A stretch of 32,000 nt of DNA, taken from Candidatus Calditenuaceae archaeon. Lineage in GTDB: Archaea > Thermoproteota > Nitrososphaeria_A > Caldarchaeales > Calditenuaceae. Under the pieces are notes generated by a model that made no database searches, was not told where the DNA came from, and saw only the letters and a program-made list of their open reading frames with translations. Below are positions 2,850 through 22,614 of this stretch, one piece after another. The stretch lies in contig JANXDI010000012.1 of the NCBI GenBank assembly GCA_025059595.1, positions 1 through 32,000 of the forward strand, in the 5' to 3' direction. Each line of letters begins with the position of its first letter. Positions within the stretch are counted from its first letter, which is position 1. The translations under genes and the position numbers were made by a program.

Positions 2850-4820
2850 TTGTCCCAGAAATGCTTTAATAACCCAGCCGTTAATGTATTTTCTAAGTTG
2901 GTCCAAGAGGCGAAGGAAGAGAAGGAGGTAAAGGTAAAGGAGAAGAAGGAGAAAAAGAAGGAAAAGAAAGAGGAGATAATCAAGCAGTGGAGGGGGATAG
3001 ACGTTAAGCCGCTTAACCCCTCCTTCGAGATTCTCGACAGATACGTAATGAGGGAGAAATTCGCTGAGGTCATTATAGCCTCTCCTCCCGGCAGGATTGT
3101 TGAGCCGATATACTACGTTGTTGAGACCCCCCTCACGCCCAAAGAGGAGACCGCTCTGGAGAAAGTTAAAGACATTCTGACCAAGGAGCTCGACTTCCCC
3201 AAAATTGGCGAGGAAGAGGAGGTTAGGAAGATTATTCACGACACCACCTTGAGGGTTATCAAGAAGTATAAGCGGGCGGTGGGAATGCCTTCTCTTTCAG
3301 ACGAGGTCGTTGAGAAGTTCTTGTACTATATTGATAGGGACCTCATGGGTTTCGGCCCGCTCAACGTGATTATGGAAGACTTCAAGGTCGAGGACATTTC
3401 ATGCGACGGGCTCAACATCCCGATTTACGTCTGGCACAGGGACTTCGAAAGCATGCCCACCAACGTCTCCTTCACGGATAGGGAGGCTCTCGACGACTTC
3501 ATAATTCATCTAGCCCATAAGGCGGGTAAGCACGTCTCATCCGCCTTCCCCATAGTGGACGCCATGATTTACGGGAAGCACAGGCTCGCCGCGACTTTCA
3601 GGGAGGAGATTTCTCCGCGCGGGAGCACCTTCACGATTAGGAAATTCAGGGAGAAGCCATTCAGCGTAACCGAGCTCATACTCAGCAACGTCCTGAATAG
3701 CGAGATGGGCGCGTATTTCTGGCTCCTACTCGAGAACAAGGCCAGCCTCATGCTAATAGGAGCGACGGGCAGCGGAAAGACAACCCTCCTAAACGCACTC
3801 ACGACCTTCATCAAGCCTAGGATGAAAATAGTCACATGCGAGGAGACCGCTGAGATTAACATTCCAAGGGACAACTGGGTCAGGTTTGTTACGAGAGAGA
3901 GCTACGGCCTCGGTGCGACGGAGAGGGGCGAGGTGGCCCTCTTCGACCTCGTTAAAACTAGCCTCAGGTATAGGCCAGACTATCTTCTAGTCGGTGAGGT
4001 TAGGGGCGAGGAGGCCTTCGTCCTCTTCCAAGCCATAGCGACCGGACACGGAGGCCTGACCACCGTCCACGCCGAAGACGTTGAGAGCGCGATTAAGAGG
4101 CTTATGAGCCCGCCGATGAATATTCCCGAGACACACATCTCCCTTCTCGATGCAATGGCGCTGATTCAGAGGGTCCAGCTCCGCGGCAAGACCCAGCTCT
4201 ACGGCAGGCGCGTCAGGTTCATCTGGGAGGTTGAGGACGCCCACAAATACAGGAAGATAGCCGAGTGGGACCCTGTCACGGACACGTTCAGGGTAAACTT
4301 CGCTAATAGCCTCCAAATAGAGAACATCTCGCTGATGAATGGTATTAGTAAGGAGGACCTCATGCTTGAGCTCTGGAGGCGGAAGGAGCTCCTCGAGTGG
4401 ATGCGAGAGAACAAGATAACAGACAACGACAAAGTCGCGAGCATTATCCTCTCCTATTACGCAGACCCTGAAAAGCTGATTGCCGAGGCGGGAATCACTG
4501 TTAGGAGGCCGCCTATTCCCGCTGTGGCAACGCCTAGGAGGCTGGAGACCGTCGCTCTGCCCACCGCGCTACCGTCCGTGGTCTCGAGCTCTCCGCAGCC
4601 AGCTGCTCCGACCGTTAGTGCGGAGGAGCTGGAGAGGGAGGTTAAGCCGATAGCCGACTACATCGTTGAGGCTATTCTCAAGAGGAGTGGCCCGACTCCG
4701 TATTGGCAGGTCTTCGTAAAGACGCCCTATCCGAGGGACGTGATTATCAGGGCTATGCGCTACCTGAAGGACAAGAGACGCATCGATATTATCGGCGGCG
4801 TTGTAGAGCTTATGGAGTAG
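2850..4820 (+). CDS. type IV filament assembly ATPase (FlaI/PilB/VirB11 superfamily) with extra N- and C-terminal regions
   Basis: Walker A GATGSGKTT, Walker B/Asp box DYLLVGEVRGEEA, His box GHGGLTTVHAED. The N-terminal domain pattern EPIYYVVETPLTPKEE is typical of archaeal FlaI-like ATPases. The exact start is uncertain (TTG 2850 or TTG 2898), but it must lie upstream of ATG 3047 because the conserved N-domain begins before it. Confidence 0.9.
   Translation: MSQKCFNNPAVNVFSKLVQEAKEEKEVKVKEKKEKKKEKKEEIIKQWRGIDVKPLNPSFEILDRYVMREKFAEVIIASPPGRIVEPIYYVVETPLTPKEETALEKVKDILTKELDFPKIGEEEEVRKIIHDTTLRVIKKYKRAVGMPSLSDEVVEKFLYYIDRDLMGFGPLNVIMEDFKVEDISCDGLNIPIYVWHRDFESMPTNVSFTDREALDDFIIHLAHKAGKHVSSAFPIVDAMIYGKHRLAATFREEISPRGSTFTIRKFREKPFSVTELILSNVLNSEMGAYFWLLLENKASLMLIGATGSGKTTLLNALTTFIKPRMKIVTCEETAEINIPRDNWVRFVTRESYGLGATERGEVALFDLVKTSLRYRPDYLLVGEVRGEEAFVLFQAIATGHGGLTTVHAEDVESAIKRLMSPPMNIPETHISLLDAMALIQRVQLRGKTQLYGRRVRFIWEVEDAHKYRKIAEWDPVTDTFRVNFANSLQIENISLMNGISKEDLMLELWRRKELLEWMRENKITDNDKVASIILSYYADPEKLIAEAGITVRRPPIPAVATPRRLETVALPTALPSVVSSSPQPAAPTVSAEELEREVKPIADYIVEAILKRSGPTPYWQVFVKTPYPRDVIIRAMRYLKDKRRIDIIGGVVELME
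2912..2976 (+). repeat. polypurine tract encoding a Lys/Glu low-complexity segment
   Basis: 65 nt contain only two pyrimidines (t2929, t2935), and 2936-2976 is uninterrupted purine. It encodes KEEKEVKVKEKKEKKKEKKEE in the N-terminus of the ATPase ORF. Confidence 0.8.
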
Positions 4821-6594
4821 TCTGGAGCTCGAACAATCCTACTGTTATATTTCCGGATAACCATATGGCTATGAGGGAGATTACTGACATTATTATGGCG
4901 TGTTTGAATCCTCCGGCTATCGTTGAGCCTGAGATTTTACCGGCGACTATTCCGCTTATGACTGCGATTATTATGACTGGTGGGAGGAAAAAGTGTATGA
5001 ACTCAGCGGACGATATGCTTAGGCGGGCAAGCTTCAGCAGGCCCTTCATGAAGGAGACAAGTATGACTACGACGACTATGAGGAGGACCGCGGTGAGGTA
5101 GGGAATAATCATCAGCGGCTTCAGCGTTGCGCGCTTCTGCCTCTCAATCTCCTCCAAGTCCTCCGAGAACGTGGCGAGAACTTCGAATGTCTCCGGCGCT
5201 CCGCCGCCGACATCTATCGCGTCTATCAGTATGAAGACTCCCGCCCTCTCGAGCCAGCCGTAGGTCCGCTTGGCAAAGTCCTCGTAAATCTTTCTGAGGG
5301 GCATTCCCCAGCCTATCTGCCTAGCCATGATTTTGAGGTGTTTGCTGAAGGCTCCGTAGGGGTTTCGCGAGAGGTCGATGATGCACCTCTCGGGGCTTAG
5401 GCCGGTCTTCCTGACCTCCGTGATGTCTCTGAGGAAGAGTGTGAGACCGTGGACGACTGAGAAGTTCTCGGAGCCATATCTCTGGTATGCGATTGCGGCT
5501 GGTGTGAAGAGGATTATGGAGAAGAGGATGAGGGCTATGGAGGACTCGTAGCCCATCTCGATTCCCATGGCCTTCCTTATCTCGACTATGATGCCGGATG
5601 TTATGTCGAAGGGCGGGATGTATTGCAACTCTGTGAGGAAGAAGGGCACCGCGAAGAGAGCGAGGAAAGCGAAGGCCGCGGGCATGGTGAAGTATAGGAC
5701 CCTCATCGGCCTCGGGTCTGTTATTGGGTATTTCGGCTGGCTTATGTCTGCGAGGTAGAGGAAGAGCACCGCGAGGAGGGGTAGGAAGAGGTAGGCTATC
5801 ATGGCGAACTGCTCGGAGGGCATTATGAGGAACTCGGTGGGGAGGGCTCTTGAGACTATGTAGATTGTGAATAGGACGAGTGAGAGCATCATCGTTATCG
5901 CCGCGTAACCCTCCATCAGCATGCCCATCCTCTCACCCACGATACGCATCTTACCCATCCGCGAGGTGAAAATCTGCTCCGTCTTCCTGATGAGGAAGTG
6001 GACCACGTCTCCGCCGCTCCGAATCGTCGAGGCGTAACCCATGAGGAGGTCTCTATACTCCTTGCTGGGTAGGCCTTTGGCCATCTTCTCGATTGCCGAG
6101 ACAGGGTCGAGTCCGCCGACCTTGACGTTCAGGTCTGCGAGCTTGGCGGCCTTGGCTATGTTGGGCATGAGCTGGCTCTGGGCGAGCCGTGAAAGGCTTT
6201 TGTATGGTGGTATTCCGCCTGTGGACATGACTGCGAGGTAGGCGGCGGCGTAGGGGACCTCGCTCTCGAAGAGCGTCGCGGCGGAGGAGGCAGCCATGTA
6301 TGGCCAAGCAAGCCCCAAGCCGAGGGCGATCAGGGGGATACTCCCAATGAGCCCAAGCCCAATTAGGCTGCCTGTGAAAAGATAAACAACAACGGCCAAG
6401 GGGATGGAGATTATCGCAGTTACCACCACCACAGCAGCCACAATTGAAGTGAAGACCTCCGGGTAGATGCGTTTCCCAGCGCTCTCGAGCTTGGATGGTA
6501 TTCCCGGCGCTATTCGGAGAAGAAGCGTCCCAAGACCCCTAAAGTTCGAGTATGAGAAGCTGGTGAAAGACTCGCTGAACCCCATGACTAACAA
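4810..6594 (-). CDS. FlaJ/TadC-type polytopic membrane platform protein
   Basis: 594 aa with two soluble T2SS-F-like segments (e.g. GYASTIRSGGDVVHFL and IMARQIGWGMPLRKIYEDF...IDAIDVGGGAPETFE) separated by clusters of TM helices. It sits next to the ATPase. ATG at 6594 lies about 20 nt downstream of a TATA box. Confidence 0.85.
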   Translation of the reverse strand: MLVMGFSESFTSFSYSNFRGLGTLLLRIAPGIPSKLESAGKRIYPEVFTSIVAAVVVVTAIISIPLAVVVYLFTGSLIGLGLIGSIPLIALGLGLAWPYMAASSAATLFESEVPYAAAYLAVMSTGGIPPYKSLSRLAQSQLMPNIAKAAKLADLNVKVGGLDPVSAIEKMAKGLPSKEYRDLLMGYASTIRSGGDVVHFLIRKTEQIFTSRMGKMRIVGERMGMLMEGYAAITMMLSLVLFTIYIVSRALPTEFLIMPSEQFAMIAYLFLPLLAVLFLYLADISQPKYPITDPRPMRVLYFTMPAAFAFLALFAVPFFLTELQYIPPFDITSGIIVEIRKAMGIEMGYESSIALILFSIILFTPAAIAYQRYGSENFSVVHGLTLFLRDITEVRKTGLSPERCIIDLSRNPYGAFSKHLKIMARQIGWGMPLRKIYEDFAKRTYGWLERAGVFILIDAIDVGGGAPETFEVLATFSEDLEEIERQKRATLKPLMIIPYLTAVLLIVVVVILVSFMKGLLKLARLSISSAEFIHFFLPPVIIIAVISGIVAGKISGSTIAGGFKHAIIMSVISLIAIWLSGNITVGLFELQTTP

Positions 6595-6673: not shown

Positions 6674-6684
6674 AAAATATATAT
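6674..6684 (+). promoter_or_regulatory. TATA box for the small pilin gene (near-leaderless)
   Basis: AAAATATATAT is centred about 29 nt upstream of ATG 6709. Confidence 0.5.
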
Positions 6685-6708
6685 CAGGGAGACCAGAATC
6701 ATTCGAGT

Positions 6709-7110
6709 ATGATGAATAGAAGAAAAGCAGGTATCAGCCCGGTCGTAGCAACGGTGATACTCGTCGCAGTAGCAATCGTAATAGCCATCGCGGTAGCCTT
6801 CTGGGCCTCAGGACTCGTAGGAGTCTTCACAAGATTCGAAAAAATAGAGATACAAACAGCATACTGGGACGGAGAAAGAGTCGTAGTGATTGCGAAGAAC
6901 ACCGGGTCAAGCCCAGCAGTAGTAGACATGATATTAGTGAACGGATTGCCCTGCGTAACGGCAACAAACATAGCACTTCCGGTGGGAGGCTCAGCCATCA
7001 TCAATGTCAGTGTAGGAGCCACCTGTGTTCAACAAGGAGGCATTACTAACGAGATTGCACTCCACACAACTAGCGGAAAGACCTACCCAGTAGCGGTCCT
7101 CGTACCGTAA
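6709..7110 (+). CDS. archaeal type IV pilin-like protein (class III signal peptide), candidate major pilin
   Basis: N-terminus MMNRRKAG|ISPVVATVILVAVAIVIAIAVAF has a short basic leader, Gly at -1, and a hydrophobic helix, as in the archaeal pilin N-terminal domain. This is followed by a small beta-rich domain (VVVIAKNTGSSPAVVDMILVNG). 133 aa with two Cys. Confidence 0.85.
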   Translation: MMNRRKAGISPVVATVILVAVAIVIAIAVAFWASGLVGVFTRFEKIEIQTAYWDGERVVVIAKNTGSSPAVVDMILVNGLPCVTATNIALPVGGSAIINVSVGATCVQQGGITNEIALHTTSGKTYPVAVLVP

Positions 7111-7123
7111 ATTCGCAGCCCAA

Positions 7124-7139
7124 TATTTTTATTGTTTTA
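7124..7139 (+). terminator. oligo-T archaeal terminator candidate after the pilin gene
   Basis: TATTTTTATTGTTTT begins 14 nt after the TAA stop at 7108-7110. Confidence 0.4.
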
Positions 7140-7214: not shown

Positions 7215-8117
7215 TTGAGCCGCGCCGGGCATAGGCCTCTCCGCACGCTGGTGGTAATCTGCGCATATAATGAGGAGAATAGCATCGCCACGCCAGTCGC
7301 TCAGGCCATCCGAGAAGGCTTCGAGGTTCTGGTCGTTGACGACGGAAGCGAGGATAGGACGTCGGAAATCGCTAAGGCCCATGGTGCCGAGGTAATCAGA
7401 AACGACGTGAGGGGTGGAAAGGCTTTAGCGCTGAGTAGAGCGATATCTTACGCGAAGGAACATGAATACGAAGCGATAATTGAGGTAGGTGCAGACGCGG
7501 TGCCGGTAGAGGGAGGCATAAGCAGGCTATACAGATACCTCACCCTTCCAAGCGTAGGAGGTGTCTCGGCGCGCCAAATACCACTGGGGAGTGGGCCGGC
7601 ATACAGGATTGATGAGCTCATGTGGAGCATTCTAGCGGAGGGGAAGTCGCTTCAGCAGAGGCTGGGCAGGCAGGTCCACCTCGGCGCGGTGATGTATGGT
7701 GCCAAACTCAGGCACATTAGGGCAGTTGCAGGGGTAATCAACGATGACGAGTTCGTCGGCATACTCGTGAGCAGAGACGGTGGGAAAAACTACTTCGCGG
7801 AGGACTGCGTAGCCTATTTCGACGCATCCTCATCAATAAAGCACCTCTTCAATAGAAGGAAGCGCATGATATTGGGGCACCTCCAGCTCGGAAAATCAAC
7901 CGCGCCCAGCATGCAGCCAAGCATACTCACAGCCGCAACACTACTAGCAATAGTCAAGAAAACGTCCAGACTGATGTGGCTTGTACCTGCCCTAATAATC
8001 GAAATAGCGGCGCGCTTGTCGGCATTTAGAGATTCGCGAAAAGTCGATAAACTGGCGGAATACGTTAGGTGGCACACGCATGGAATGAAAAAACCGATAC
8101 AGCGCCATGTAACATAA
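7215..8117 (+). CDS. family 2 glycosyltransferase (polyprenyl-phosphate sugar synthase-like)
   Basis: N-terminal GT-A signature VVICAYNEENSI...VLVVDDGSEDRTSEIA and a C-terminal hydrophobic segment (LTAATLLAIV...WLVPALIIEIAA), as in DPM/ArnC/GtrB-type enzymes. TTG start. Confidence 0.85.
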   Translation: MSRAGHRPLRTLVVICAYNEENSIATPVAQAIREGFEVLVVDDGSEDRTSEIAKAHGAEVIRNDVRGGKALALSRAISYAKEHEYEAIIEVGADAVPVEGGISRLYRYLTLPSVGGVSARQIPLGSGPAYRIDELMWSILAEGKSLQQRLGRQVHLGAVMYGAKLRHIRAVAGVINDDEFVGILVSRDGGKNYFAEDCVAYFDASSSIKHLFNRRKRMILGHLQLGKSTAPSMQPSILTAATLLAIVKKTSRLMWLVPALIIEIAARLSAFRDSRKVDKLAEYVRWHTHGMKKPIQRHVT

Positions 8118-8169
8118 AGGCTAGCTAGGAGCCGTTATACGATGAGATTGAATTTTGTAATCGACGCCT

Positions 8170-8586
8170 TCAGATTCTTCCAATCAGTATGGCGCCCACT
8201 ATTATGAGGGCCACACCTATCCACTGCTCTGGGGTGGGTTTCTCGCCTAATGCTAAGATTCCGACCAGAACTATCGAGAGGATTGATAGTGAGAGGAAGA
8301 ATCTTCCCAGCATTACTCCGAGGTCGCTGTAAACCCAGTAGCTTAGGACAGCGACTGTGAAGCCCGTAAGCATGGCGAGTATGAACCACTTATTGAAGAA
8401 GAGCGTGAAGAGAAATGTCAGGGAGACCTCAGGCGCGCCGACCTCCCTCAACGCGAATCCCCAGAAGAGCGTGTTCAGCCCCACAAAGACGGCGACGAGA
8501 AGCCCAACAACCCAGATTGTAGAGTCCACTCCTCCCCCTCCTCGGAGCATTGTTCGCGGAGATTGCGGATATAACTCTTCAAACAC
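8170..8586 (-). CDS. small single-EamA-domain membrane protein (ArnE/F- or SMR-like candidate flippase)
   Basis: 138 aa with 4 predicted TM helices. The C-terminal GEKPTPEQWIGVALIIVGAILI is the typical EamA domain end. The start may instead be the internal Met (MLRGGGG, 8550). Confidence 0.6.
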   Translation of the reverse strand: MFEELYPQSPRTMLRGGGGVDSTIWVVGLLVAVFVGLNTLFWGFALREVGAPEVSLTFLFTLFFNKWFILAMLTGFTVAVLSYWVYSDLGVMLGRFFLSLSILSIVLVGILALGEKPTPEQWIGVALIIVGAILIGRI

Positions 8587-8657
8587 TCTGAGGGAGCGAG
8601 CATATCAAGGGATTAATAGGGCGGCTGCCGGCTCTTGGCCGGTGCGCTGACAGGGGC

Positions 8658-10007
8658 GTGAAGAGAGGCGGAGACGGCTGGAGGACGGTGGCCACGCTTG
8701 CCCTAATAGTCTCCTTAGGGTTCGCGATACGCTTCACCATCTGGATATACCCAATGTATGGTGTTCAGAGCCTACTAATCTTCGACACGGGTTCTTACCC
8801 CATCTTCGGGCTGGCCTACATTCACGCGATAACCACGATGAACTTCACAGCACTCACCAGCATAAACCCGGGCGTCCCACCCATCGGCATGCTCCTCACA
8901 GGCCTATCAACGCAGACGTTTGGAGAGCTTATCGGCCCGATCCAAGCCAGCCTCATCCCACCTGTCACGGCCTCAGCCCTCACAGCAATCCCAGCCTACC
9001 TCATCGCCAAGAGATATGCGGGGAGGGCGGCCCTTCTGGCCCCGGCCCTCGTGTCGTTCGACCCATTCCTAATCCAATTCTCCGCAACGTACCTCGACTC
9101 CATCGGTACGCTTTTCGCAGCGGCGTCGGCCGCCTACGTCATCGATTCGAGTAGCAGAAGGTCCTTCAGTCTCGCCATCTTCTTCGCCACCCTCGCAGCT
9201 CTGACAAAACTCTCGTTCACCATCTTCACGGCGATATTCGCGCTCCTCCTACTCCTCAACAAGGAGCTCACTGCGAGGAGGGCTATCCTCTACCTGCTTA
9301 TTCCGCCAGCCTCGCTGGTCCTCAGCCCCGGTGTCTGGAGACCCTCCAACATCGGGGCCATAGTCGAGGGGCATCTCGCCTTTAACAACGTGCCTCTTGC
9401 GCCTCTCCTCAGCCCATTCGTCATAGACGTCCCACTATCCCTACCTTGGCACATCCTCTCATACCTCGGAATGGGTCAAGTCTCATGGAACACTCTGCCG
9501 CACGTAACGCCGCTGGCCGTCCTCCTGATGGTGGCCTACCAAGCCGCGAGAAATGAGTTGCGGATACCTCGTGGCGCCGCGATTCCAGCCTCGGCGATAG
9601 TCTTGGCAATCTTCCTGCTGCCGAGGGGCTACTGGACCTACAGCTGGGCCGGGGGCGCCGTTCAGGGGGTTCTGGCGCGCCAGTTCTATCCCTACTACTT
9701 CTACCCTGTAGGCCCCTTCCTAGCAGTCTTAGCGGCGGCAGTCTTCGCATCCGACGCAGGCCACAGACCCGCGGGCAGACTCGCGACCTACCCCGCACTG
9801 CTGGCCGCCCTCGTCTCGCCGCTAGCCGTGGTGATGAGCTTCGGCCTCCCCTACTGGGACTTCATCTTCAACCTAATCTACAGCGCCTCGCAGGGAAGCT
9901 GGATGGCGGAGGGGATAGCGGCCGCGGGCATCACCACGGCCATTCTCGCCGCGGTCTTAGCGGCAGCCGAGCTGATACACAGACGGGCACAACGAATAGG
10001 GGGTTAG
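8658..10007 (+). CDS. polytopic membrane protein, putative GT-C fold glycosyltransferase (ArnT/PMT-like)
   Basis: 449 aa with about 11-12 TM helices. The first extracytoplasmic loop carries an acidic/aromatic motif (LLIFDTGSYPIF) in the position of the GT-C DE/DxD loop. It is adjacent to the GT2 and EamA genes. Family assignment is inferential. Confidence 0.5.
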   Translation: MKRGGDGWRTVATLALIVSLGFAIRFTIWIYPMYGVQSLLIFDTGSYPIFGLAYIHAITTMNFTALTSINPGVPPIGMLLTGLSTQTFGELIGPIQASLIPPVTASALTAIPAYLIAKRYAGRAALLAPALVSFDPFLIQFSATYLDSIGTLFAAASAAYVIDSSSRRSFSLAIFFATLAALTKLSFTIFTAIFALLLLLNKELTARRAILYLLIPPASLVLSPGVWRPSNIGAIVEGHLAFNNVPLAPLLSPFVIDVPLSLPWHILSYLGMGQVSWNTLPHVTPLAVLLMVAYQAARNELRIPRGAAIPASAIVLAIFLLPRGYWTYSWAGGAVQGVLARQFYPYYFYPVGPFLAVLAAAVFASDAGHRPAGRLATYPALLAALVSPLAVVMSFGLPYWDFIFNLIYSASQGSWMAEGIAAAGITTAILAAVLAAAELIHRRAQRIGG

Positions 10008-10023: not shown

Positions 10024-11328
10024 TTAAGGAGCCTGCGAGGCAAGAGGTGCTCTGCAGGCCGTCATGACGTTTCCTCCCTCAACCCACCACTTACAGACGT
10101 AGACCACCCCTAATATCTCAGGAGAGCGGAAGTCAAACCGCCCGTAGTTGTCGCGAGTTATGAGGCCCTGCGCCCCATCCAGTCTAATCCTGTAGATGAA
10201 GAAGCCTCCATAATCCTTCTTACTCGTGCCAGGGTCCGTGACTTCTATCGTGAAGAAGCCCAAGTAAGAGGTCCCTGGCGAGAGAGTCGGGATGCTCTGG
10301 CTCAGAGGCGAGGCATTCAAAGTAATATTATTAAACGATACAAACTCTAAAACAACATTAACGTTTCTCAGAGGCTCCGTTATGTTCCCAAGCGTTACAA
10401 TGTAGGGTATCGTAACATTGACCTCCAAGTCGCTCCCATTCATCAGGACCATCATGTTCCTCTGAAGCGTCATGACTTGGAGCGGAATCGGCCTCGGCGG
10501 GTCAAGCCTCACACCGACATCAACATGGACCACTACGTGGCTGCTGGCTACGACTCTTACCGGGTTGGGTGATACGTTGGCGCAGGAGCCGCCCGTCAAA
10601 TACGGGCACTGGAGGGCCCGCACCTCGTAGACGCCTGGCGCGATGTTGAACGCGAATACGTCGCTCAGGTCTTCGACCCTCGACACGAGCCTGCTCATTA
10701 CCGCCTTTTCCCTACAACCTGTCGCGAACTCCTCGCCCCTTACGGAGACGCATCCCCTTGTCATGTTGACGTTCACGTCGTCCTTCACGACAGACACCTC
10801 AACCTCGTATCTGTGACCTAGGCTTACGTTGCTTAACTGAACCATCAGGAGGTAGGGTAGCTTGTTCGGCCCGATTGGCTCCCCTGACACAAAGCTATTC
10901 CCCCTAAGGGTTGGGGCCCTCAAGACAACCACCTCGTTAGGCTCCAGATAGTAGTTTAGAGGCTTCATCAGAATGGCGCCGGGAGGAAGCTTATATTGCT
11001 CGTCGACAACCTGGAGGCCGAACCTGTTACTCTCGATATAGAGCGTAGGCACTGTAATCTCTATCGGCCCCCTATTCATCATCGTCAAGTATAGAGCCCT
11101 CTTTTGGAATGGGTGGAGCTCGGGGGGCTGCATCGTCAGAGTTATCTCCAGCTCCTCGTTAAGCTTCTCCACCTCGAACTGAAGCCTCCTCGAGACCTCA
11201 TCCATGAAGAGGGTCTGGAGCTGCTGAATATAGAGCCACATCGGAATCATGACGGTGAAAAATATCATCACCGCAACCGCCGTCCCAACCACCGCGGAGA
11301 TACCTGCCGACCTACTGCGACGCCCCAT
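10024..11328 (-). CDS. large pilin-like surface protein (class III signal peptide), 434 aa
   Basis: MGRRSRSAG|ISAVVGTAVAVMIFFTVMIPMW prepilin-like N-terminus, then the module LYLTMMNRGPIEITVPTLYI that resembles the first beta domain of the small pilin. 8 N-x-S/T sequons and 6 Cys in three close pairs. ATG lies 1 nt after the upstream stop. Confidence 0.7.
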   Translation of the reverse strand: MGRRSRSAGISAVVGTAVAVMIFFTVMIPMWLYIQQLQTLFMDEVSRRLQFEVEKLNEELEITLTMQPPELHPFQKRALYLTMMNRGPIEITVPTLYIESNRFGLQVVDEQYKLPPGAILMKPLNYYLEPNEVVVLRAPTLRGNSFVSGEPIGPNKLPYLLMVQLSNVSLGHRYEVEVSVVKDDVNVNMTRGCVSVRGEEFATGCREKAVMSRLVSRVEDLSDVFAFNIAPGVYEVRALQCPYLTGGSCANVSPNPVRVVASSHVVVHVDVGVRLDPPRPIPLQVMTLQRNMMVLMNGSDLEVNVTIPYIVTLGNITEPLRNVNVVLEFVSFNNITLNASPLSQSIPTLSPGTSYLGFFTIEVTDPGTSKKDYGGFFIYRIRLDGAQGLITRDNYGRFDFRSPEILGVVYVCKWWVEGGNVMTACRAPLASQAP

Positions 11329-11329
11329 C

Positions 11330-11857
11330 TCAGTTAGCCACCCCCGTCCTCGTAACCGTTATCGTGATAACCAACGTTGTGGTAGTGGTTGAGGTGACTA
11401 CCGTCGTCGTCGGGACAGTTGTGGTTCGGGCGTCAGACGTAGTTGAGACGATTGTCGTGACGGTGGTTGTGGGAGTGGTCACGGTGGTAGTAACGTAGAT
11501 GAAGGCCGTGGTCCGTGTGGTGGAAATAGTATAAACTGTCACCCATTGAGTAATCGTGGTCGTTGAAGTGATGCGCGTAGTGGAAAATGTAGTTGATGCG
11601 CTGGTTACTGTCCGTGTTCCACTTGTAAGAGTCGTGGTTGTGAACCTCGTTGTATAGCTAGTGACAGTTCTCGTGCCCTCGGTTAAGGTCGTCGTCGAGG
11701 ACGTTGTTACCCAGCTCGTGGTCGTGGTGGTTGTTGTCGTGGTGGTCGTGACAACCCTGAAGGTCTGGGCCAACCCAGAGAGGCTCAACGTAAGAAGCAC
11801 GATAACAGCTAGCGCAAGAGCTAGTGCCTTCCCGCCGCGCCTTACTCCCTTATCCAT
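11330..11857 (-). CDS. secreted Thr-rich low-complexity protein, 175 aa
   Basis: ATG start with a Sec-like signal peptide (KALALALAVIVLLTLSLSGLA|QT), followed by about 140 aa dominated by Thr/Val/Ser. This includes an 11-Thr run and an internal repeat TLTEGTRTVTSYTTRFTTT / TLTSGTRTVTSASTTFSTT. It overlaps the upstream gene by 16 nt. Confidence 0.65.
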   Translation of the reverse strand: MDKGVRRGGKALALALAVIVLLTLSLSGLAQTFRVVTTTTTTTTTTTSWVTTSSTTTLTEGTRTVTSYTTRFTTTTLTSGTRTVTSASTTFSTTRITSTTTITQWVTVYTISTTRTTAFIYVTTTVTTPTTTVTTIVSTTSDARTTTVPTTTVVTSTTTTTLVITITVTRTGVAN

Positions 11858-12426
11858 GAATTAACCCACCTCCTAATTAGAGGATACACAACTAGCGGCC
11901 CTAGGGAAAGATAGAGCATTACCTGCCAGCCGAGCGGCCACCAATGAGGCACGAATATAAACGCTTCACCTGAGCCCTGACCACTACCACCCCCCACAGT
12001 CGTCGTGCTCGTCGTCCTGCTCGTTACAGTCGACGTGACATACACCGTAGAAGTGAACGTGCTTGTCAATGTCCTCGTGGTGGTGAAAGTCGTGGAGACC
12101 GATGTGACTGTGTTGGTTATAGTCGGGCTAAAAGACGTGCGAACCACAGTCACTACACTGGTTATCGTAGAAGTTCGAGTAGCGGTGAAGCTCGTCGTGG
12201 TGCGTATCACGATATGTGTTCCGGTTGATACGACCACGGTGGTTACCCTAGTCACTGTCTCTGGAACTGTTCGCGTCGTTGAGGGGGTTACTGTTGTGGA
12301 CGTAGATACGATGGTCGAGACGGTTGTAGTGGTTGTCCGCGGAATGGTCGTCGTAGTGACTCTTGTAGTGGTCATAGTCACGGTCTCCGTGACCGTTGAC
12401 GTTGTTGTGGTGGTGATTATAGGGGT
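11333..12426 (-). repeat. extreme Thr-codon (ACN) low-complexity coding region spanning two adjacent genes
   Basis: The plus strand is strongly G/T-rich (GTN/NGT). The minus strand encodes T/V/S/R-rich sequence in residues 381-524 of the 574-aa protein (11995-12426) and residues 36-175 of the 175-aa protein (11333-11752). Confidence 0.85.
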
Positions 12427-13566
12427 GACATCCATGGTCCTCACAACAACTCTGCCGATGTCGAAGACATATACGGGCGTGTCGAGCACAACGCTGTACT
12501 GGTTGATAATCAGGGAAAGGCCGCCCATCAATATCTGGACCCTGAGAATGCCCCGAGCGATCAGCACGTTGTTGCAGTCGTATATCTCGACAACAAGCTC
12601 GTAGTCACCGTCCTCCCAGAAGCCAATCGAGAGGATCATCTCATCGATTCTCATATTATTGAGATTAAGCCGCATTTTGGAGTAGTCGATGTAGTTTCCG
12701 AAGCTGCTCGGGAATCCCCAGCTTTGGGGGAGTATTGTGACGTCTGGCATGAGGGATTGAATCTCGACTACTAGAGGTGTCCGGAGACCGCCCCTATCGA
12801 GCTGGACGTAAACCTCTTGTGGTAGGTCGCCGGTTACTCTCGCAGTCCCCCTAGCAACCACTCCATTCGCATCCGTGACTGTTACTTGGAAGTCGTAGGA
12901 GGCCATTCTTCTGCTGGCGTTGAGCAGCCTGACTTTGATGAAGTCTGTTGTGACTCCGTAGATGTTCTCCTCCTTGGGGTCCACCAGCTCTATCAGGAGC
13001 CAGTGGTTTGTTGGGAGTTCGCAACCACTTGCTAGACCATAGCGCGGCTCAGAGGCCTCGAAGGTCGCTACCTTGAAGAGAAGCGTCTCGCTGTCCGGCT
13101 TGGAGAGGGCCGGGTTGTCAGGGTCGTAGAGCTGCTCCGGAATGTAGTGGACTTGAACGAGTATTCTGTCGCCCGGAGAGCAGACGCTACCGGGGCATCT
13201 GAAGGCTAAGGCTGTTCTCTCATTTACCGGGATTCTGGCGTGGTCGTCTATCCCGGAATCATAGACCACGGTGCCATTCTTTATGGTGAGTATTCTGAAG
13301 ACGATGACCGGCTCCCTGCCCGTGTTTCTTAGAAGCATGACGCCCCTGTCGGCTCCGCCAAAGATTTTATCAGGATAGTAGACATATTCTGCGCCTATGT
13401 TAGACCTGAGGATTAGCGCCTGGTCGCCCAGCTGTCTAACCTCCTCCTGACGCCAGACTCCCGCATAGCTACTTAGAAAGACCCACAGGGCTATACCGGC
13501 GGACAAGACCGCCGCAAGTATCAACACAGTCGAAACGATCTCGCTGTATCCTCTTTTCCGCCTCAT
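11842..13566 (-). CDS. large pilin-like surface protein with Thr-rich stalk and C-terminal hydrophobic anchor, 574 aa
   Basis: MRRKRG|YSEIVSTVLILAAVLSAGIALW class III-like signal. A body of about 340 aa is colinear with the upstream 386-aa protein. This is followed by a 144-aa Thr/Val/Ser/Arg region, a GGGSGQGSGE linker and a hydrophobic tail WWPLGWQVMLYLSLGPLVVYPLIRRW. Confidence 0.75.
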   Translation of the reverse strand: MRRKRGYSEIVSTVLILAAVLSAGIALWVFLSSYAGVWRQEEVRQLGDQALILRSNIGAEYVYYPDKIFGGADRGVMLLRNTGREPVIVFRILTIKNGTVVYDSGIDDHARIPVNERTALAFRCPGSVCSPGDRILVQVHYIPEQLYDPDNPALSKPDSETLLFKVATFEASEPRYGLASGCELPTNHWLLIELVDPKEENIYGVTTDFIKVRLLNASRRMASYDFQVTVTDANGVVARGTARVTGDLPQEVYVQLDRGGLRTPLVVEIQSLMPDVTILPQSWGFPSSFGNYIDYSKMRLNLNNMRIDEMILSIGFWEDGDYELVVEIYDCNNVLIARGILRVQILMGGLSLIINQYSVVLDTPVYVFDIGRVVVRTMDVTPIITTTTTSTVTETVTMTTTRVTTTTIPRTTTTTVSTIVSTSTTVTPSTTRTVPETVTRVTTVVVSTGTHIVIRTTTSFTATRTSTITSVVTVVRTSFSPTITNTVTSVSTTFTTTRTLTSTFTSTVYVTSTVTSRTTSTTTVGGGSGQGSGEAFIFVPHWWPLGWQVMLYLSLGPLVVYPLIRRWVNSWIRE

Positions 13567-13567
13567 G

Positions 13568-14698
13568 TTAATACTCCTCCACCAGCACGTCTATGCGCGC
13601 TATATCCATCAATAGGATTGGGGGTACGTCAACGAACACTGAGTCTGTGAAGATGCCCCTCGGTACGTTCGTAATTACGAACCTAGATGTGATTAGCTCG
13701 CCGTTACAGTCGTACAGGTTTACGGTTATCCTGTATCTTCCACCCACTAGGTCGTTGACGCCCAGCTCAACCTCAACCACGTCAACCATCTTCTCAGCAT
13801 TTGACCATAGAGTCACTCCCGAGGCATGAGCCTTCCAAGGTATTCCTCCTAGCCTCCACTCACGCTGAAGCACGTTAAACCCGGCAGCCAGAACATGGAT
13901 GCGGAGGGGGGTCTGAAATCCTCCGAAACTGCCTGTGAAACTATACATCTCGTTGCCGATGGTAGGCACGTTGCGTGTAGCGAATCCGTAGGCGCCGGAC
14001 GCGTTGATGACTTGTATATCAACTGAGACTGTGGCACTTGAGGATGCGTAGGGAAATCTGGCATGGATTCTGTTGTTAGGTTGCGACGGAATCTTTCCCG
14101 TGTCACTATATGTGACTGGGTCTATCACATCCACCGTCATCCAGTTGGGGGGTAAGGGGCATCTAGCCGCTACTCCGCCTGGCGGATAGACAAAGACCGT
14201 CTCAACATATCGCATCTCATCCGCAGACAGGACTGGATTCTCCTCGTTAAACAGGGCGGAGGCGACATACCAGACCCTCAGCCTCAGAGTCTCCAAAGGA
14301 AGGCATGTGGCGCAGAGGGGTATAACGCCTCCGCTTAGTGTGGCATTTCCGCTGGGGAGTAGCTCGGCCAGCTCGGTGAAGCCGGTCGACGGATACGAGG
14401 CTTTTAGTGCTCCTCCCGGGGTCAATATCTCTATTCTAGTGACTATGACTGGCACATCCGCTATGTTTCGGAGAATGATGCTTCTCTCCCTGCTTGTGAA
14501 GTTAACAGCCTCGAAGGAGAGCTGGGCCGATGTCTTGACTAGGAGTATAGCCCTGTTAGCCTCGTTGGTGGAGGATTGGAGCGTGGCGCCAAGCCACCCG
14601 GAGGCCACGCCGAGGATGAATATTCCCATGCCTACCGTTAGGGCGGCCAAGATAACAGCCCCTATAGTAGTGTCTCCATTACTCCTCCCCCTCGTCAT
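13568..14698 (-). CDS. large pilin-like surface protein, paralog of the 574-aa protein
   Basis: With ATG 14698 the N-terminus is MTRGRSNG|DTTIGAVILAALTVGMGIFILG, a short basic leader plus hydrophobic helix. The ORF extends to GTG 14728. Colinear motifs shared with the downstream paralog include RYRITVNLYDCNGELITSRFVI vs DYELVVEIYDCNNVLIARGILRV and CPLPPNWMTVDVIDP vs CELPTNHWLLIELVDP. Confidence 0.75.
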   Translation of the reverse strand: MTRGRSNGDTTIGAVILAALTVGMGIFILGVASGWLGATLQSSTNEANRAILLVKTSAQLSFEAVNFTSRERSIILRNIADVPVIVTRIEILTPGGALKASYPSTGFTELAELLPSGNATLSGGVIPLCATCLPLETLRLRVWYVASALFNEENPVLSADEMRYVETVFVYPPGGVAARCPLPPNWMTVDVIDPVTYSDTGKIPSQPNNRIHARFPYASSSATVSVDIQVINASGAYGFATRNVPTIGNEMYSFTGSFGGFQTPLRIHVLAAGFNVLQREWRLGGIPWKAHASGVTLWSNAEKMVDVVEVELGVNDLVGGRYRITVNLYDCNGELITSRFVITNVPRGIFTDSVFVDVPPILLMDIARIDVLVEEY

Positions 14699-14753
14699 AC
14701 GCCGTCGACGGCCGCCCAGTATAACCACCTTCTAAAGCCTATGAACCTAACAG

Positions 14754-14827: not shown

Positions 14828-14900
14828 CATTTTCGCACACCTGGTTAGGTTAATTATAACTATTGGCCATAGCTGTTCGGTTCATTAGAAAGCTAAAGAT

Positions 14901-14912
14901 TCTTATATCATT
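14901..14912 (+). promoter_or_regulatory. TATA box candidate for the membrane/zinc-ribbon gene
   Basis: TCTTATATCATT lies about 25 nt upstream of in-frame GTG 14932. The stretch 14863-14930 is AT-rich and unlikely to be coding. Confidence 0.35.
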
Positions 14913-14931
14913 AAAAGACCTTCATCTAATA

Positions 14932-22483: not shown

Positions 22484-22614
22484 CCTGTCCAAGCCACCCA
22501 AAAGCCTCTACCACCAACAATACATAAGACCCGCACACTAAATAGTCTATCCCAGAAAAAAACATATTCTTGGCCACACCGCCCGACGAGGCCCTAAACG
22601 CAGGCTCATATTCC

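What the first reader, a model, noticed from the sequence alone, without database searches (positions are those of the whole stretch)
7215..10007. Three-component lipid-carrier glycosylation module inside the pilus locus; candidate system for glycosylating the Thr-rich proteins
The three genes are a GT2 enzyme with a C-terminal membrane segment (7215-8117), a 4-TM single-EamA protein (8170-8586) and a 449-aa polytopic protein with an acidic/aromatic first loop (8658-10007).

Together they reproduce the established three-component extracytoplasmic glycosylation scheme:
- polyprenyl-phosphate sugar synthase
- small flippase
- GT-C transferase

Known examples are ArnC/ArnEF/ArnT, GtrB/GtrA/Gtr-type and Ppm1/PMT.

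The module lies between the pilin gene and an operon encoding extremely Thr-rich secreted proteins. PMT-type GT-C enzymes O-mannosylate Ser/Thr-rich regions in eukaryotes and actinobacteria. To my knowledge the enzymes for archaeal protein O-glycosylation are still essentially uncharacterised. The link to O-glycosylation is a hypothesis.
Basis: inference. Interest (0 to 1): 0.7.

Follow-up and report, generated by a model that had tools for sequence, protein, structure and literature searches.

The report
Pilus-linked archaeal GT-C glycosylation module
A hot-spring archaeon encodes, right next to its pilin gene, a PMT/ArnT-like membrane glycosyltransferase with a sugar-loading enzyme and a small flippase-like protein, making it a concrete candidate for the still-unidentified machinery that O-glycosylates archaeal surface filaments.

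Summary
The three genes are real and conserved. Two corrections apply: the EamA gene is on the minus strand, and the GT2 is not DPM1/GtrB/ArnC-like.

- **449-aa protein:** it has a GT-C fold, with best structural matches to ArnT, STT3 and Pmt4. It belongs to a small, divergent PMT_2-type family. Its Asp43 aligns with the catalytic Asp of the loop-1 "DE" motif.
- **GT2:** it is a minimal cellulose-synthase-like enzyme. Its nearest solved relative is PcManGT of Pyrobaculum.
- **EamA protein:** it is a 4-TM half-DMT, weakly ArnE/F-like.

Synteny over about 100 loci changes the picture. The invariant pair is pilin plus GT-C, adjacent in 79 of 79 testable loci and in 4 of 4 pilin-seeded ones. GT2, EamA and an FkbM methyltransferase form a swappable cassette between them.

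Thr-rich proteins and the GT-C are not tightly co-inherited. There are loci with an intact GT-C and no Thr-rich genes, and loci with a decayed GT-C that keep the Thr-rich genes.

The lipid-carrier glycosylation scheme is therefore supported. The acceptor is more likely the adjacent pilin, possibly together with the Thr-rich pilin-like proteins.

I rate it a new variant of a known kind, with moderately high interest.

The parts
8658..10007 (+). GT-C fold glycosyltransferase, a divergent PMT_2/ArnT-like family of 449 aa and about 13 TM helices. It has no soluble C-terminal or MIR domain. Conserved residues are D43 (loop-1 'DE'-motif Asp), VPPIGM 73-78, D135-P136, D147, K184, R323 and W400-D401.
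   Evidence: AF2 model: pLDDT 80.6, pTM 0.86. Foldseek against PDB: ArnT 5f15 at E 8.7e-5 and TMq 0.51, followed by STT3, Pmt4, AglB, PglB, EmbB and ALG9. 10 of 42 homologs hit PMT_2. Remote profile hits are PMT_2/PMT proteins, and D43 aligns with their DE-motif Asp.
7215..8117 (+). Membrane-associated GT2 of the PcManGT-like, minimal cellulose-synthase-like type. Motifs: DDGS 42-45, GADA 92-95, NDDE 176-179 (general-base position) and RRKRMILGH 214-222 (QxxRW-like). Proposed role: lipid-linked sugar donor synthase.
   Evidence: Pfam GT2. Profile against PDB: PcManGT 6yv7 at E 8.4e-24 over 192 residues, whereas GtrB, DPMS and ArnC match only the N-terminal ~100 residues at 1e-11 to 1e-12. AF2 pLDDT 94.1. 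Foldseek top hits are hyaluronan, chitin and cellulose synthase cores. Conserved motifs.
8170..8586 (-). 4-TM protein with a single EamA domain (half-size DMT transporter). Candidate flippase for the lipid-linked sugar. Transcribed divergently from the GT-C gene across a 71-bp spacer.
   Evidence: Pfam EamA, 29.5 bits against a 28.2 cut-off. ArnE or ArnF is the top NCBIfam hit for the window protein and in 6 of 6 homologs tested, but far below the cut-offs. Hydropathy. Sequence.
6709..7110 (+). Small type IV pilin (133 aa, class III signal peptide). It is the invariant neighbour of the GT-C gene and the most likely conserved acceptor. It has its own TATA-like box (6674-6684) and a T-tract after the stop codon (7124-7137).
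   Evidence: NCBIfam arch_flag_Nterm and a weak UpsA hit. Adjacent to the GT-C in 79 of 79 testable loci, median gap 139 bp, and in 4 of 4 pilin-seeded loci. Sequence.
11842..13566 (-). 574-aa pilin-like protein. It has a class III signal peptide, a ~370-aa globular part, a ~160-aa Thr-rich stretch (T 43%, V 15%, S 12%) and a C-terminal hydrophobic tail. Possible additional acceptor.
11330..11857 (-). 175-aa secreted protein that is 43% Thr. It has an N-terminal hydrophobic signal or anchor. Its start overlaps the end of the 574-aa gene by 16 nt. Possible additional acceptor.
10024..11328 (-). 434-aa pilin-like protein with a class III signal peptide and 8 N-x-S/T sequons. Its gene is convergent with the GT-C gene, with a 16-nt gap.
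   Evidence: Conserved synteny.
13568..14728 (-). 386-aa pilin-like protein, the first gene of the minus-strand operon.
2850..4820 (+). Type IV pilus assembly ATPase (T2SSE with a PilB3_C domain).
4810..6594 (-). Type IV pilus platform membrane protein (T2SSF; UpsF/ArlJ-like).

Best explanation
This is a pilus-dedicated, lipid-carrier-dependent glycosylation module of a Caldarchaeales archaeon. Its core is a PMT_2/ArnT-like GT-C enzyme that is inherited together with the major pilin gene.

Proposed mechanism:
1. On the cytoplasmic face, the membrane-associated PcManGT-like GT2 loads a sugar from a nucleotide sugar onto dolichyl phosphate. Alternatively it extends a Dol-P-linked sugar.
2. The 4-TM EamA protein helps move the lipid-linked sugar to the outer face.
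3. There the GT-C, using the loop-1 Asp43, transfers the sugar to hydroxyl groups of pilus proteins as they emerge from the membrane. The adjacent small pilin is the primary target. The Thr-rich pilin-like proteins are probably targets too where they are present.

The GT2, EamA and FkbM-methyltransferase genes form an exchangeable donor cassette. Lineages without it would draw on housekeeping Dol-P-sugars.

What is shown: the folds and families, the conserved catalytic-type residues and the gene linkage. What is inferred: the donor, the flipping step, the acceptor and the O-linkage.
For: **GT-C identity**
- Foldseek top 17 hits are all GT-C enzymes, led by ArnT (E 8.7e-5), STT3 and Pmt4.
- PMT_2 hits in 10 of 42 homologs.
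- Remote profile hits are PMT_2/PMT proteins.
- D43 aligns with the Asp of their loop-1 DE motif, and VPPIGM aligns with HPPLxKL.
- D43, D135, D147, K184 and R323 are invariant or nearly so, even in 24-32%-identical members.

**Linkage to the pilin**
- The pilin is adjacent to the GT-C in 79 of 79 loci with enough flank, across 24-68% GT-C identity.
- It is adjacent in 4 of 4 pilin-seeded loci.

**GT2 and GT-C coupling**
- Two different GT2 types, both Glyco_trans_2_3-like, occupy the slot next to the GT-C.
- 5 of 5 remote GT2 homologs are immediately followed by a 350-442-aa polytopic protein. Two of these have weak PMT_2 hits, and one locus reads Pilin_N > GT2 > PMT_2-like.
- The nearest solved GT2 is PcManGT. 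From my recollection of Gandini et al. 2020, it is a Dol-P-dependent mannosyltransferase.

**EamA**
- ArnE/F are consistently its best named relatives.

**N-glycan decoration of the pilin is unlikely**
- About 60 of 65 pilin variants have no N-x-S/T sequon in the head domain.

**Precedents**
- TfpW, a GT-C encoded next to pilA that glycosylates Ser/Thr, for which ArnE/F may help supply the donor when the GtrA-like flippase is absent.
- Streptococcal GtrB/PgtC2 and the Pgf system, acting on Ser/Thr-rich regions.
- AglD/AglR/AglS in Haloferax.
Against: - There is no direct evidence for any glycan, donor or acceptor.
- The window protein itself has no Pfam hit and no PDB sequence hit. TM-scores to GT-C structures are only about 0.5.
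- The GT2 carries the general-base Asp and a QxxRW-like motif typical of enzymes that glycosylate hydroxyl acceptors. It is not DPM1-like. It may therefore extend a lipid-linked glycan or make a glycolipid rather than a Dol-P-monosaccharide.
- EamA similarity to ArnE/F is far below the family cut-offs. Only one gene is present, not a pair. It is on the opposite strand.
- The GT-C has decayed independently in several lineages while the pilin and the Thr-rich genes persist. The modification is therefore dispensable.
- The pilin head is only about 16-25% Ser+Thr.
Confidence: 0.6

Rival explanations
1. One reading: the module exists specifically to O-glycosylate the extremely Thr-rich proteins of the neighbouring operon, PMT-style, and the pilin is not the target.
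For: - The GT-C belongs to the PMT/PMT_2 clan, whose characterised members O-mannosylate Ser/Thr-rich regions.
- The Thr-rich pair is conserved in most Caldarchaeales loci that reach far enough.
- Streptococcal GT-C enzymes glycosylate Ser/Thr-rich regions of membrane-anchored proteins.
- The Thr-rich stretches contain no N-sequons.
Against: - There are loci with an intact GT-C and pilin but no Thr-rich ORF within reach: L031 (14.4 kb), L072 and L063.
- There are loci with a truncated or frameshifted GT-C that keep both Thr-rich genes: L054, L075, L078 and L080.
- The GT-C is always next to the pilin, not next to the Thr-rich genes.
- The Thr-rich segments are T/V/I/S/R-rich with only 3% Pro. 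That suits beta-structure as well as it suits a mucin-like glycosylated linker.
Confidence: 0.2
2. The GT-C decorates N-glycans already attached to pilus-associated proteins. It would add a terminal sugar from a Dol-P-sugar on the outer face, as AglS does with AglD and AglR in Haloferax volcanii. On this reading it is not a protein O-glycosyltransferase.
For: - The archaeal three-component precedent is exactly of this kind (PMC3871713).
- The neighbouring 434-aa pilin-like protein has 8 N-x-S/T sequons, and the 386-aa and 574-aa proteins have 3 and 2.
- FkbM methyltransferases in related cassettes resemble the sugar-methylating steps of N-glycan pathways.
Against: - The invariant neighbour, the small pilin, has no sequon in about 60 of 65 variants.
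- The family is PMT_2/PMT-like, with a DE-type loop-1 Asp.
- No AglB or other N-glycan assembly genes lie in the locus.
Confidence: 0.12
3. The module modifies a non-protein acceptor, such as a membrane glycolipid, a lipoglycan or an envelope polysaccharide, in the manner of ArnT or Emb. It sits in the pilus locus only because surface functions are co-regulated.
For: - ArnT is the best structural match.
- The GT2 has a cellulose-synthase-like core with a general-base Asp, as in lipid or glycan glycosyltransferases.
- The protein lacks any soluble acceptor-binding domain.
Against: - Strict adjacency to one pilin family over deep divergence, in two different locus architectures, is hard to explain by co-regulation alone.
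- The same holds for the recurrent GT2 and GT-C pairs next to pilin or adhesin genes elsewhere.
Confidence: 0.08

Closest known systems
TfpW of Pseudomonas aeruginosa group IV pilins (a GT-C pilin arabinosyltransferase with its lipid-linked D-Araf supply genes)
   Same: A GT-C enzyme is encoded immediately next to the major type IV pilin gene. It uses a polyprenyl-phosphate sugar made in the cytoplasm, and a small flippase takes part. A GtrA-like protein is required in E. coli. Loss of ArnE/F together with that protein lowers pilin glycosylation. The target is Ser/Thr of the pilin. Pilus glycosylation there defends against pilus-specific phages (title and abstract listed).
   Different: - Bacterial rather than archaeal.
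- TfpW has a large periplasmic C-terminal domain and polymerises Araf. The protein here ends after its last TM helix.
- The donor pathway there is UbiA/DprE-type, not a GT2.
- Sequence homology to TfpW was not tested here.
Haloferax volcanii AglD / AglR / AglS
   Same: This is the only characterised archaeal three-component system. A GT2 charges Dol-P with mannose, AglR is involved in delivering it across the membrane, and a polytopic Dol-P-Man mannosyltransferase acts on the outer face.
   Different: - The acceptor there is an N-linked tetrasaccharide on the S-layer glycoprotein, not a pilin.
- AglD is DPM1-like, whereas the GT2 here is PcManGT-like.
- AglR is a Wzx/MOP-type protein (from my own knowledge), not a 4-TM EamA protein.
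- Those genes are not linked to a pilus locus.
Streptococcal GtrB/PgtC2 and PgfS/PgfM systems
   Same: A GT2 polyprenyl-P-sugar synthase works with a GT-C enzyme to O-glycosylate extracytoplasmic Ser/Thr-rich regions of membrane-associated or surface proteins.
   Different: - Bacterial.
- The GT2 is GtrB/DPM1-type.
- The targets are disordered Ser/Thr-rich tails of many proteins.
- There is no pilin linkage.
Protein O-mannosyltransferases (GT39: eukaryotic PMT, actinobacterial Pmt) and ArnT (GT83)
   Same: They share the GT-C(A) fold, the PMT_2/PMT-type N-terminal module, a loop-1 acidic motif at the position of D43, and the HPPL-like motif.
   Different: - There is no MIR domain (PMT) and no C-terminal periplasmic domain (ArnT).
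- The second residue of the DE motif is not conserved.
- The window protein scores below every Pfam threshold.
- The family is tiny: 17 clusters at E<=1e-30 among 1.84 billion representatives.
PcManGT (Pyrobaculum calidifontis, PDB 6YV7), nearest relative of the GT2
   Same: Homology extends over the whole GT-A domain (E 8.4e-24). Both have a cellulose-synthase-like core, and the general-base Asp is aligned (PcManGT D223). From my recollection of Gandini et al. 2020, it is GDP-Man-, Dol-P- and Mn-dependent.
   Different: PcManGT has three C-terminal TM helices. The window GT2 has one marginal hydrophobic segment. The alternative GT2 of related loci does have several C-terminal hydrophobic helices. 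PcManGT lies in a putative N-glycosylation cluster, not next to a GT-C or a pilin.

Membership tests
GT-C fold glycosyltransferases (PMT_2/PMT/ArnT branch) | Polytopic membrane protein with the GT-C fold | tested here: met
   AF2 model with pTM 0.86. The 17 best Foldseek PDB hits are all GT-C enzymes, and transporters score with probability below 0.3.
GT-C fold glycosyltransferases (PMT_2/PMT/ArnT branch) | Sequence homology to a curated GT-C family | tested here: met
   The window protein has no direct Pfam hit. However, 10 of 42 close homologs hit PMT_2 (best 1.3e-12). Of 10 distant profile hits scanned, 7 matched PMT_2, 5 of them also PMT; the 3 closest had no Pfam hit.
GT-C fold glycosyltransferases (PMT_2/PMT/ArnT branch) | Conserved acidic residue in the first extracytoplasmic loop (DE/DxD-type motif) | tested here: met
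   D43 is conserved in at least 90% of homologs, including 24-32%-identical members. It aligns with the Asp of PDELLY, RDEPVY and TDERLY in PMT_2/PMT proteins. The Glu of the DE pair is not conserved.
GT-C fold glycosyltransferases (PMT_2/PMT/ArnT branch) | Uses a polyprenyl/dolichyl-phosphate-linked sugar donor | not testable with these tools
   Requires biochemistry.
GT39 protein O-mannosyltransferases (PMT proper) | MIR domain in the large luminal loop (eukaryotic PMT), or full-length PF02366 match | tested here: not met
   There is no MIR or PMT hit for the window protein or for any of 42 homologs. The protein is 449 aa with only short loops.
GT83 ArnT | C-terminal periplasmic soluble domain and lipid A acceptor | tested here: not met
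   The model ends in a TM helix (416-448). There is no sequence hit to ArnT chains. Archaea have no lipid A (established knowledge).
DPM1/GtrB/ArnC-type polyprenyl-phosphate glycosyltransferases | Full-length homology to the family (GT-A domain plus interface helices) | tested here: not met
   GtrB, DPMS and ArnC align only with the first ~100 residues (E 1e-11 to 1e-12), whereas PcManGT aligns over 192 residues at 8.4e-24. NCBIfam scores are 16-41 bits against cut-offs of 226-529. None of the three is in the Foldseek top 50.
PcManGT-like minimal cellulose-synthase-like GT2 | GT-A domain homologous to PcManGT, with a general-base Asp and a QxxRW-like interface helix | tested here: met
   Foldseek top hits are HAS, Chs1 and BcsA cores with TMq 0.6-0.69.
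PcManGT-like minimal cellulose-synthase-like GT2 | Three C-terminal transmembrane helices | tested here: not met
   There is only one marginal hydrophobic segment, 253-271. The alternative GT2 of loci L013 and L014 does have several C-terminal hydrophobic helices.
ArnE/ArnF-type small flippases (half-size DMT) | About 110-140 aa, four TM helices, single EamA domain | tested here: met
   Pfam EamA, 29.5 bits against a 28.2 cut-off. Hydropathy.
ArnE/ArnF-type small flippases (half-size DMT) | Passes the ArnE or ArnF family thresholds; two paralogous subunits | tested here: not met
   ArnE/F are the best named hits, but at 13-20 bits against cut-offs of 92-99. There is a single gene per locus.
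Three-component extracytoplasmic glycosylation systems (Gtr, Arn, AglD/R/S type) | Donor synthase, flippase and GT-C encoded together and co-inherited | tested here: inconclusive
   All three are present in the window. Across loci only the GT-C is constant. GT2 and EamA are present in a subset, and the GT2 comes in two types. GT2 and GT-C-like pairing recurs in 5 of 5 remote contexts, without EamA.
Pilin-accessory glycosyltransferases (TfpW/TfpO paradigm) | Glycosyltransferase gene immediately adjacent to the major pilin gene and co-inherited with it | tested here: met
   79 of 79 testable loci, with a median gap of 139 bp, and 4 of 4 pilin-seeded loci.
Pilin-accessory glycosylatransferases (TfpW/TfpO paradigm) | Pilin demonstrably glycosylated by the enzyme | not testable with these tools
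   Requires mass spectrometry or genetics.

The most novel reading that the evidence does not exclude
This family is the first identifiable archaeal protein O-glycosyltransferase. It is a stripped-down PMT-like GT-C dedicated to one type IV pilus, co-inherited with its pilin. Exchangeable donor cassettes (two GT2 types, an FkbM methyltransferase, a half-DMT flippase), repeated gene decay and a hypervariable Cys-flanked pilin loop would together form a diversifying 'glyco-coat' on the filament. By analogy with phage defence through pilus glycosylation in Pseudomonas, this could be driven by viruses that use the pilus as a receptor.
Probability: 0.3. Interest if true: 0.8.

Novelty: new variant of a known kind. 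Interest (0 to 1): 0.6.

Why it matters
O-glycosylation of archaeal surface proteins and filaments has been observed repeatedly. Examples are haloarchaeal S-layer Thr-rich regions, Sulfolobus O-mannose, and a putative O-glycan on the thread. The transferase is nevertheless still described as "currently elusive" (PMC11607397).

This locus gives a specific, testable candidate. It is a small PMT_2-like GT-C with an identifiable catalytic Asp, a defined presumptive acceptor encoded next door, and a defined presumptive donor pathway.

All parts are short genes suitable for heterologous reconstitution. The open question therefore becomes directly testable even though the host is uncultured.

The locus also extends the "pilin accessory glycosyltransferase" idea from Pseudomonas to archaea. 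In addition, it shows a PcManGT-type GT2 habitually paired with GT-C enzymes. That pairing would help assign a physiological role to this poorly understood GT2 class.

Tried and rejected
- **PDB sequence searches.** Direct searches with the 449-aa protein and with its 42-sequence profile found nothing. The assignment rests on the fold search and transitive Pfam hits instead.
- **Representatives search.** It was rerun with A1.
- **Remote GT2 neighbours.** I tested whether the polytopic proteins next to remote GT2 homologs belong to the same GT-C family. hhalign gave only E 2.9e-4 (probability 40%) for L095 and nothing for L096. They are treated as other GT-C-like or unassigned proteins. Two carry weak PMT_2 hits. 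Two show a YxYPPL-type motif that I recall from DUF2029/GT87, which was not tested.
- **UbiA gene.** I considered the UbiA-family gene at 18869-19717 as a possible DPPR-synthase-like donor enzyme, as in the TfpW system. I rejected this because it is heme O synthase (267 bits against a cut-off of 210).
- **Tandem repeats.** I checked whether the Thr-rich stretches are tandem DNA repeats. They are not; only trivial 3-12-nt arrays are present.
- **PcManGT paper.** The primary paper is not held, so its biochemistry is cited from memory.
- **Type IV pilus census.** The 2016 census of archaeal type IV pili does not mention glycosyltransferases.
- **Transporter reading.** I rejected it for the 449-aa protein because MFS, POT and BetP matches have TM-scores of 0.11-0.20.

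Full report
**Observation**

The three ORFs are present exactly where stated:
- 7215-8117 (+), 300 aa, TTG start.
- 8170-8586, 138 aa, on the minus strand.
- 8658-10007 (+), 449 aa.

They sit between a small type IV pilin gene (6709-7110, +) and a minus-strand operon (10024-14728). That operon encodes three large pilin-like proteins with class III signal peptides. It also encodes a 175-aa protein that is 43% Thr. The 574-aa member carries a ~160-residue stretch with 43% Thr. Upstream lie a pilus ATPase and a platform protein.

The window matches a Calditenuaceae (Caldarchaeales, Nitrososphaerota) MAG. The GT2 is 100% identical to an annotated protein on a 270-kb contig. All genes are conserved at protein level in 14 genomes and 80 metagenome contigs, so none is a chance ORF.

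**The 449-aa protein is a GT-C enzyme**

- It has no Pfam, NCBIfam or PDB sequence hit of its own.
- 10 of 42 homologs at 45-66% identity match PMT_2, the best at 1.3e-12.
- An AlphaFold2 model built on the family alignment (pLDDT 80.6, pTM 0.86) finds only GT-C enzymes among its 17 best PDB matches. These are ArnT (E 8.7e-5, TMq 0.51), STT3, Pmt4, AglB, PglB, EmbB and ALG9. Transporters score with TM 0.11-0.20.
- A profile search of 1.84 billion representatives shows a very small family: 17 clusters at E<=1e-30 and 44 at 1e-10. Its remote hits cover profile positions ~40-230. Seven of ten sampled distant hits are PMT_2 proteins, five of them also PMT; the other three have no Pfam hit.
- In those alignments, profile position 43 falls on the Asp of the loop-1 motif of the PMT_2/PMT proteins (PDELLY, RDEPVY, TDERLY). 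The window motif VPPIGM falls on their HPPLxKL.
- D43, D135-P136, D147, K184, R323 and W400-D401 are invariant or nearly so, even in members only 24-32% identical.
- The protein lacks a MIR domain and any C-terminal soluble domain. It is therefore neither a GT39 PMT nor a GT83 ArnT in the strict sense. It is a stripped-down relative.

**The GT2 is not the expected kind**

- Pfam and NCBIfam match only the nucleotide-binding N-terminus.
- A 57-sequence profile finds PcManGT of Pyrobaculum calidifontis (6YV7) at E 8.4e-24 over 192 residues. GtrB, DPMS and ArnC align only over the first ~100 residues at 1e-11 to 1e-12.
- The high-confidence model (pLDDT 94.1) resembles the catalytic cores of hyaluronan, chitin and cellulose synthases (TMq 0.6-0.69).
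- Conserved motifs are DDGS, GADA, NDDE and RRKRMxxGH. NDDE lies at the position of the PcManGT general base D223. RRKRMxxGH is QxxRW-like.
- Only one marginal hydrophobic segment (253-271) follows the catalytic domain.
- PcManGT is, to my recollection of Gandini et al. 2020, a GDP-Man-, Dol-P- and Mn-dependent mannosyltransferase. The paper is not held.

A lipid-phosphate-linked acceptor is therefore plausible. Whether this GT2 makes Dol-P-sugar or extends a lipid-linked sugar cannot be decided here.

**The EamA protein**

It passes the Pfam EamA threshold narrowly (29.5 against 28.2 bits) and has four hydrophobic helices. For the window protein and six homologs, the best named NCBIfam relatives are always ArnE or ArnF. 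The scores are 13-20 bits against cut-offs of 92-99. It behaves like a half-size DMT, but membership of ArnE/F is not established. It is divergently transcribed from the GT-C gene across a 71-bp spacer that contains an ATTAATA element.

**Synteny changes the emphasis**

I mapped window proteins onto 94 loci and located the nearest pilin in each.
- The small pilin is adjacent to the GT-C gene in all 79 loci with enough flank. The arrangement is either pilin>GT-C or GT-C|<pilin. The median gap is 139 bp. GT-C identity across these loci runs from 68% down to 24%. The 15 exceptions are all cut by contig ends.
- Four look-ups seeded with pilin homologs also all found the GT-C downstream.
- GT2, EamA and an FkbM methyltransferase form an insert present in only a subset. 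The methyltransferase is absent from the window.
- The insert comes with two different GT2 types, both Glyco_trans_2_3-like. The alternative type has several C-terminal hydrophobic helices.
- Many loci have the pilin directly followed by the GT-C (L026-L036, L039-L043 and others).

The conserved unit is therefore pilin plus GT-C, and the 'triad' is one of several cassette states.

GT2 and GT-C coupling is independently supported. Five GT2 homologs at 42-48% identity from other archaeal contigs are each immediately followed by a 350-442-aa polytopic protein. Two of those proteins have weak PMT_2 hits. One locus reads Pilin_N > GT2 > PMT_2-like. Another lies beside a pilus ATPase and platform gene.

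**Which acceptor?**

The Thr-rich pair is conserved in most Caldarchaeales loci that extend far enough, but it is not tightly co-inherited with the GT-C.
- L031 (14.4 kb) and L072 have an intact GT-C and pilin with no Thr-rich ORF.
- L054, L075, L078 and L080 keep both Thr-rich genes although the GT-C is reduced to a C-terminal fragment or frameshifted.
- At least four separate decay states of the GT-C exist, so the modification is dispensable.

About 60 of 65 distinct pilin variants have no N-x-S/T sequon in the head domain. The pilins combine very conserved termini with a hypervariable, Ser/Thr-containing stretch between two Cys residues.

The Thr-rich stretches are T/V/S/I/R-rich with 3% Pro, have no sequons, and are not DNA tandem repeats.

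I therefore rank the adjacent pilin as the conserved acceptor and the Thr-rich pilin-like proteins as likely additional substrates. Decoration of N-glycans (AglS-like) or a non-protein acceptor remain minority possibilities. A caveat is that loci, not whole genomes, were compared, so a second GT-C copy elsewhere cannot be excluded.

**Comparison with known systems**

| System | Relation to this module | Source |
|---|---|---|
| Gtr, Arn and pentofuranose three-component systems | General scheme of GT2, flippase and GT-C; well established in bacteria | PMC11127046, |
| Haloferax AglD/AglR/AglS | An archaeal example of the same scheme | PMC3871713, |
| TfpW | A GT-C next to a pilin gene that glycosylates Ser/Thr; ArnE/F may contribute to donor supply when the GtrA-like flippase is absent | |
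| Streptococcal GtrB/PgtC2 and Pgf | GT-C-dependent O-glycosylation of Ser/Thr-rich regions | |

What is new here:
- The archaeal, pilus-dedicated setting.
- A minimal PMT_2-like GT-C family that current family libraries do not recognise.
- A PcManGT-type rather than DPM1-type GT2 partner.
- The cassette-like variability of the donor genes.

The 2016 census of archaeal type IV pili does not mention glycosyltransferases. A 2024 structural study still calls the archaeal O-glycosyltransferase elusive. Targeted searches found no later identification.

**Verdict**

- The lipid-carrier glycosylation module is well supported at the level of fold, family and gene linkage.
- The GT2 family assignment was wrong.
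- The proposed acceptor is probably not the primary one.

Novelty: a new variant of a known kind. Interest: 0.6. The module offers a concrete, reconstitutable candidate for archaeal protein O-glycosylation, but the mechanism class is familiar and no biochemical evidence exists.

Noticed in passing
L053 1783-2319; L054 5216-5752; L057 1004-1585; L075 85-1545; L078 710-1111; L080 583-1005; L087 976-1200; L089 3399-3569; L091 1670-1894: The GT-C gene next to the pilin is decayed in several lineages. Forms seen: a 178-aa C-terminal fragment, a split 51+132 aa, three frameshifted pieces, a C-terminal third only, and 56-74-aa remnants beginning MNLAFPYWDF. These remnants are still ~55-60% identical to the window protein. 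They could be recent pseudogenes or retained micro-ORFs.
   Followed up: partly
window 6709-7110 and pilin homologs in L001-L094: The pilin family has near-invariant N- and C-termini (…GGVTNEIALHTTSGKTYPVAVLVP). It also has a hypervariable Ser/Thr-containing stretch between two Cys residues (window residues ~82-106). About 60 of 65 variants have no N-x-S/T sequon in the head, which is unusual for archaeal pilins.
   Followed up: partly
L001 8436-9500; L006 8481-9239; L012 6317-7060; L002 7716-8461; L103 673-1383: Relatives carry an FkbM-family methyltransferase between the GT2 and EamA genes. The window lacks it, with only 53 bp between GT2 and EamA. This suggests methylated sugars in some lineages and a modular donor cassette.
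   Followed up: partly
L001 11462-13145; L006 11459-15122 (two copies); L012 8253-9921: An extra pair of pilin-like genes (~165 aa plus ~400 aa, both with class III signal peptides) follows or precedes the GT-C in most relatives. It is duplicated in L006 and absent from the window.
   Followed up: no
window 11842-13566 / 11330-11857; L001 14454-16304: The 574-aa Thr-rich protein ends in a conserved hydrophobic tail (…LYLSLGPL..YP..RR) after its Thr-rich stretch. This recalls the Thr-rich region plus C-terminal anchor of haloarchaeal S-layer glycoproteins. In L001 the 574- and 175-type genes are fused into one 616-aa ORF lacking that tail. This could be recombination between Thr-coding stretches or an assembly collapse.
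   Followed up: no
window 14863-16602: A 579-aa membrane protein with a Pro/Ala-rich linker and a TackOD1 domain (Thaumarchaeal output domain 1, E 5.9e-23) is a conserved neighbour of the pilus locus in nearly all related loci. It may be a regulator or sensor of the pilus.
   Followed up: partly
window 516-2779: An ABC-type ATPase (247 aa) and an unannotated 507-aa protein precede the pilus ATPase and are syntenic with the pilus locus in most relatives.
   Followed up: no
L095 6001-8224; L096 6001-8359; L097 6001-8161; L098 132-3029; L099 6001-8134: Remote homologs of the GT2 (42-48% identity) are always followed by a polytopic 350-442-aa protein, often overlapping it. Two have weak PMT_2 hits. 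Two have a YxYPPL-type motif reminiscent of DUF2029/GT87. Neighbours include a Pilin_N gene, a pilus ATPase and platform, and a Big_1 adhesin-like protein. This looks like a wider archaeal GT2 plus GT-C two-gene module for surface proteins.
   Followed up: partly
window 12005-12604 (+) and 6699-7022 (-): The long antisense ORFs opposite the Thr-rich gene (Val-rich 199 aa) and opposite the pilin gene are mirror-frame artefacts of biased codon usage, not genes.
   Followed up: partly
window 19733-22501 (-): A 922-aa fusion of an ADP-forming acyl-CoA synthetase-like module (CoA_binding, Succ_CoA_lig, ATP-grasp_5) with a C-terminal GNAT domain, i.e. a Pat-type protein acetyltransferase architecture. 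It is unrelated to the finding. Nearby are heme O synthase (18869-19717), CO-dehydrogenase-type flavoprotein and 2Fe-2S subunits (17322-18768) and a thermosome subunit (22883-24505).
   Followed up: no
L101 5538-6396: In one close relative (GCA_038852065.1) the GT2 gene appears frameshifted (two tblastn pieces; the called gene is only 161 aa), while FkbM, EamA and the GT-C are intact.
   Followed up: no
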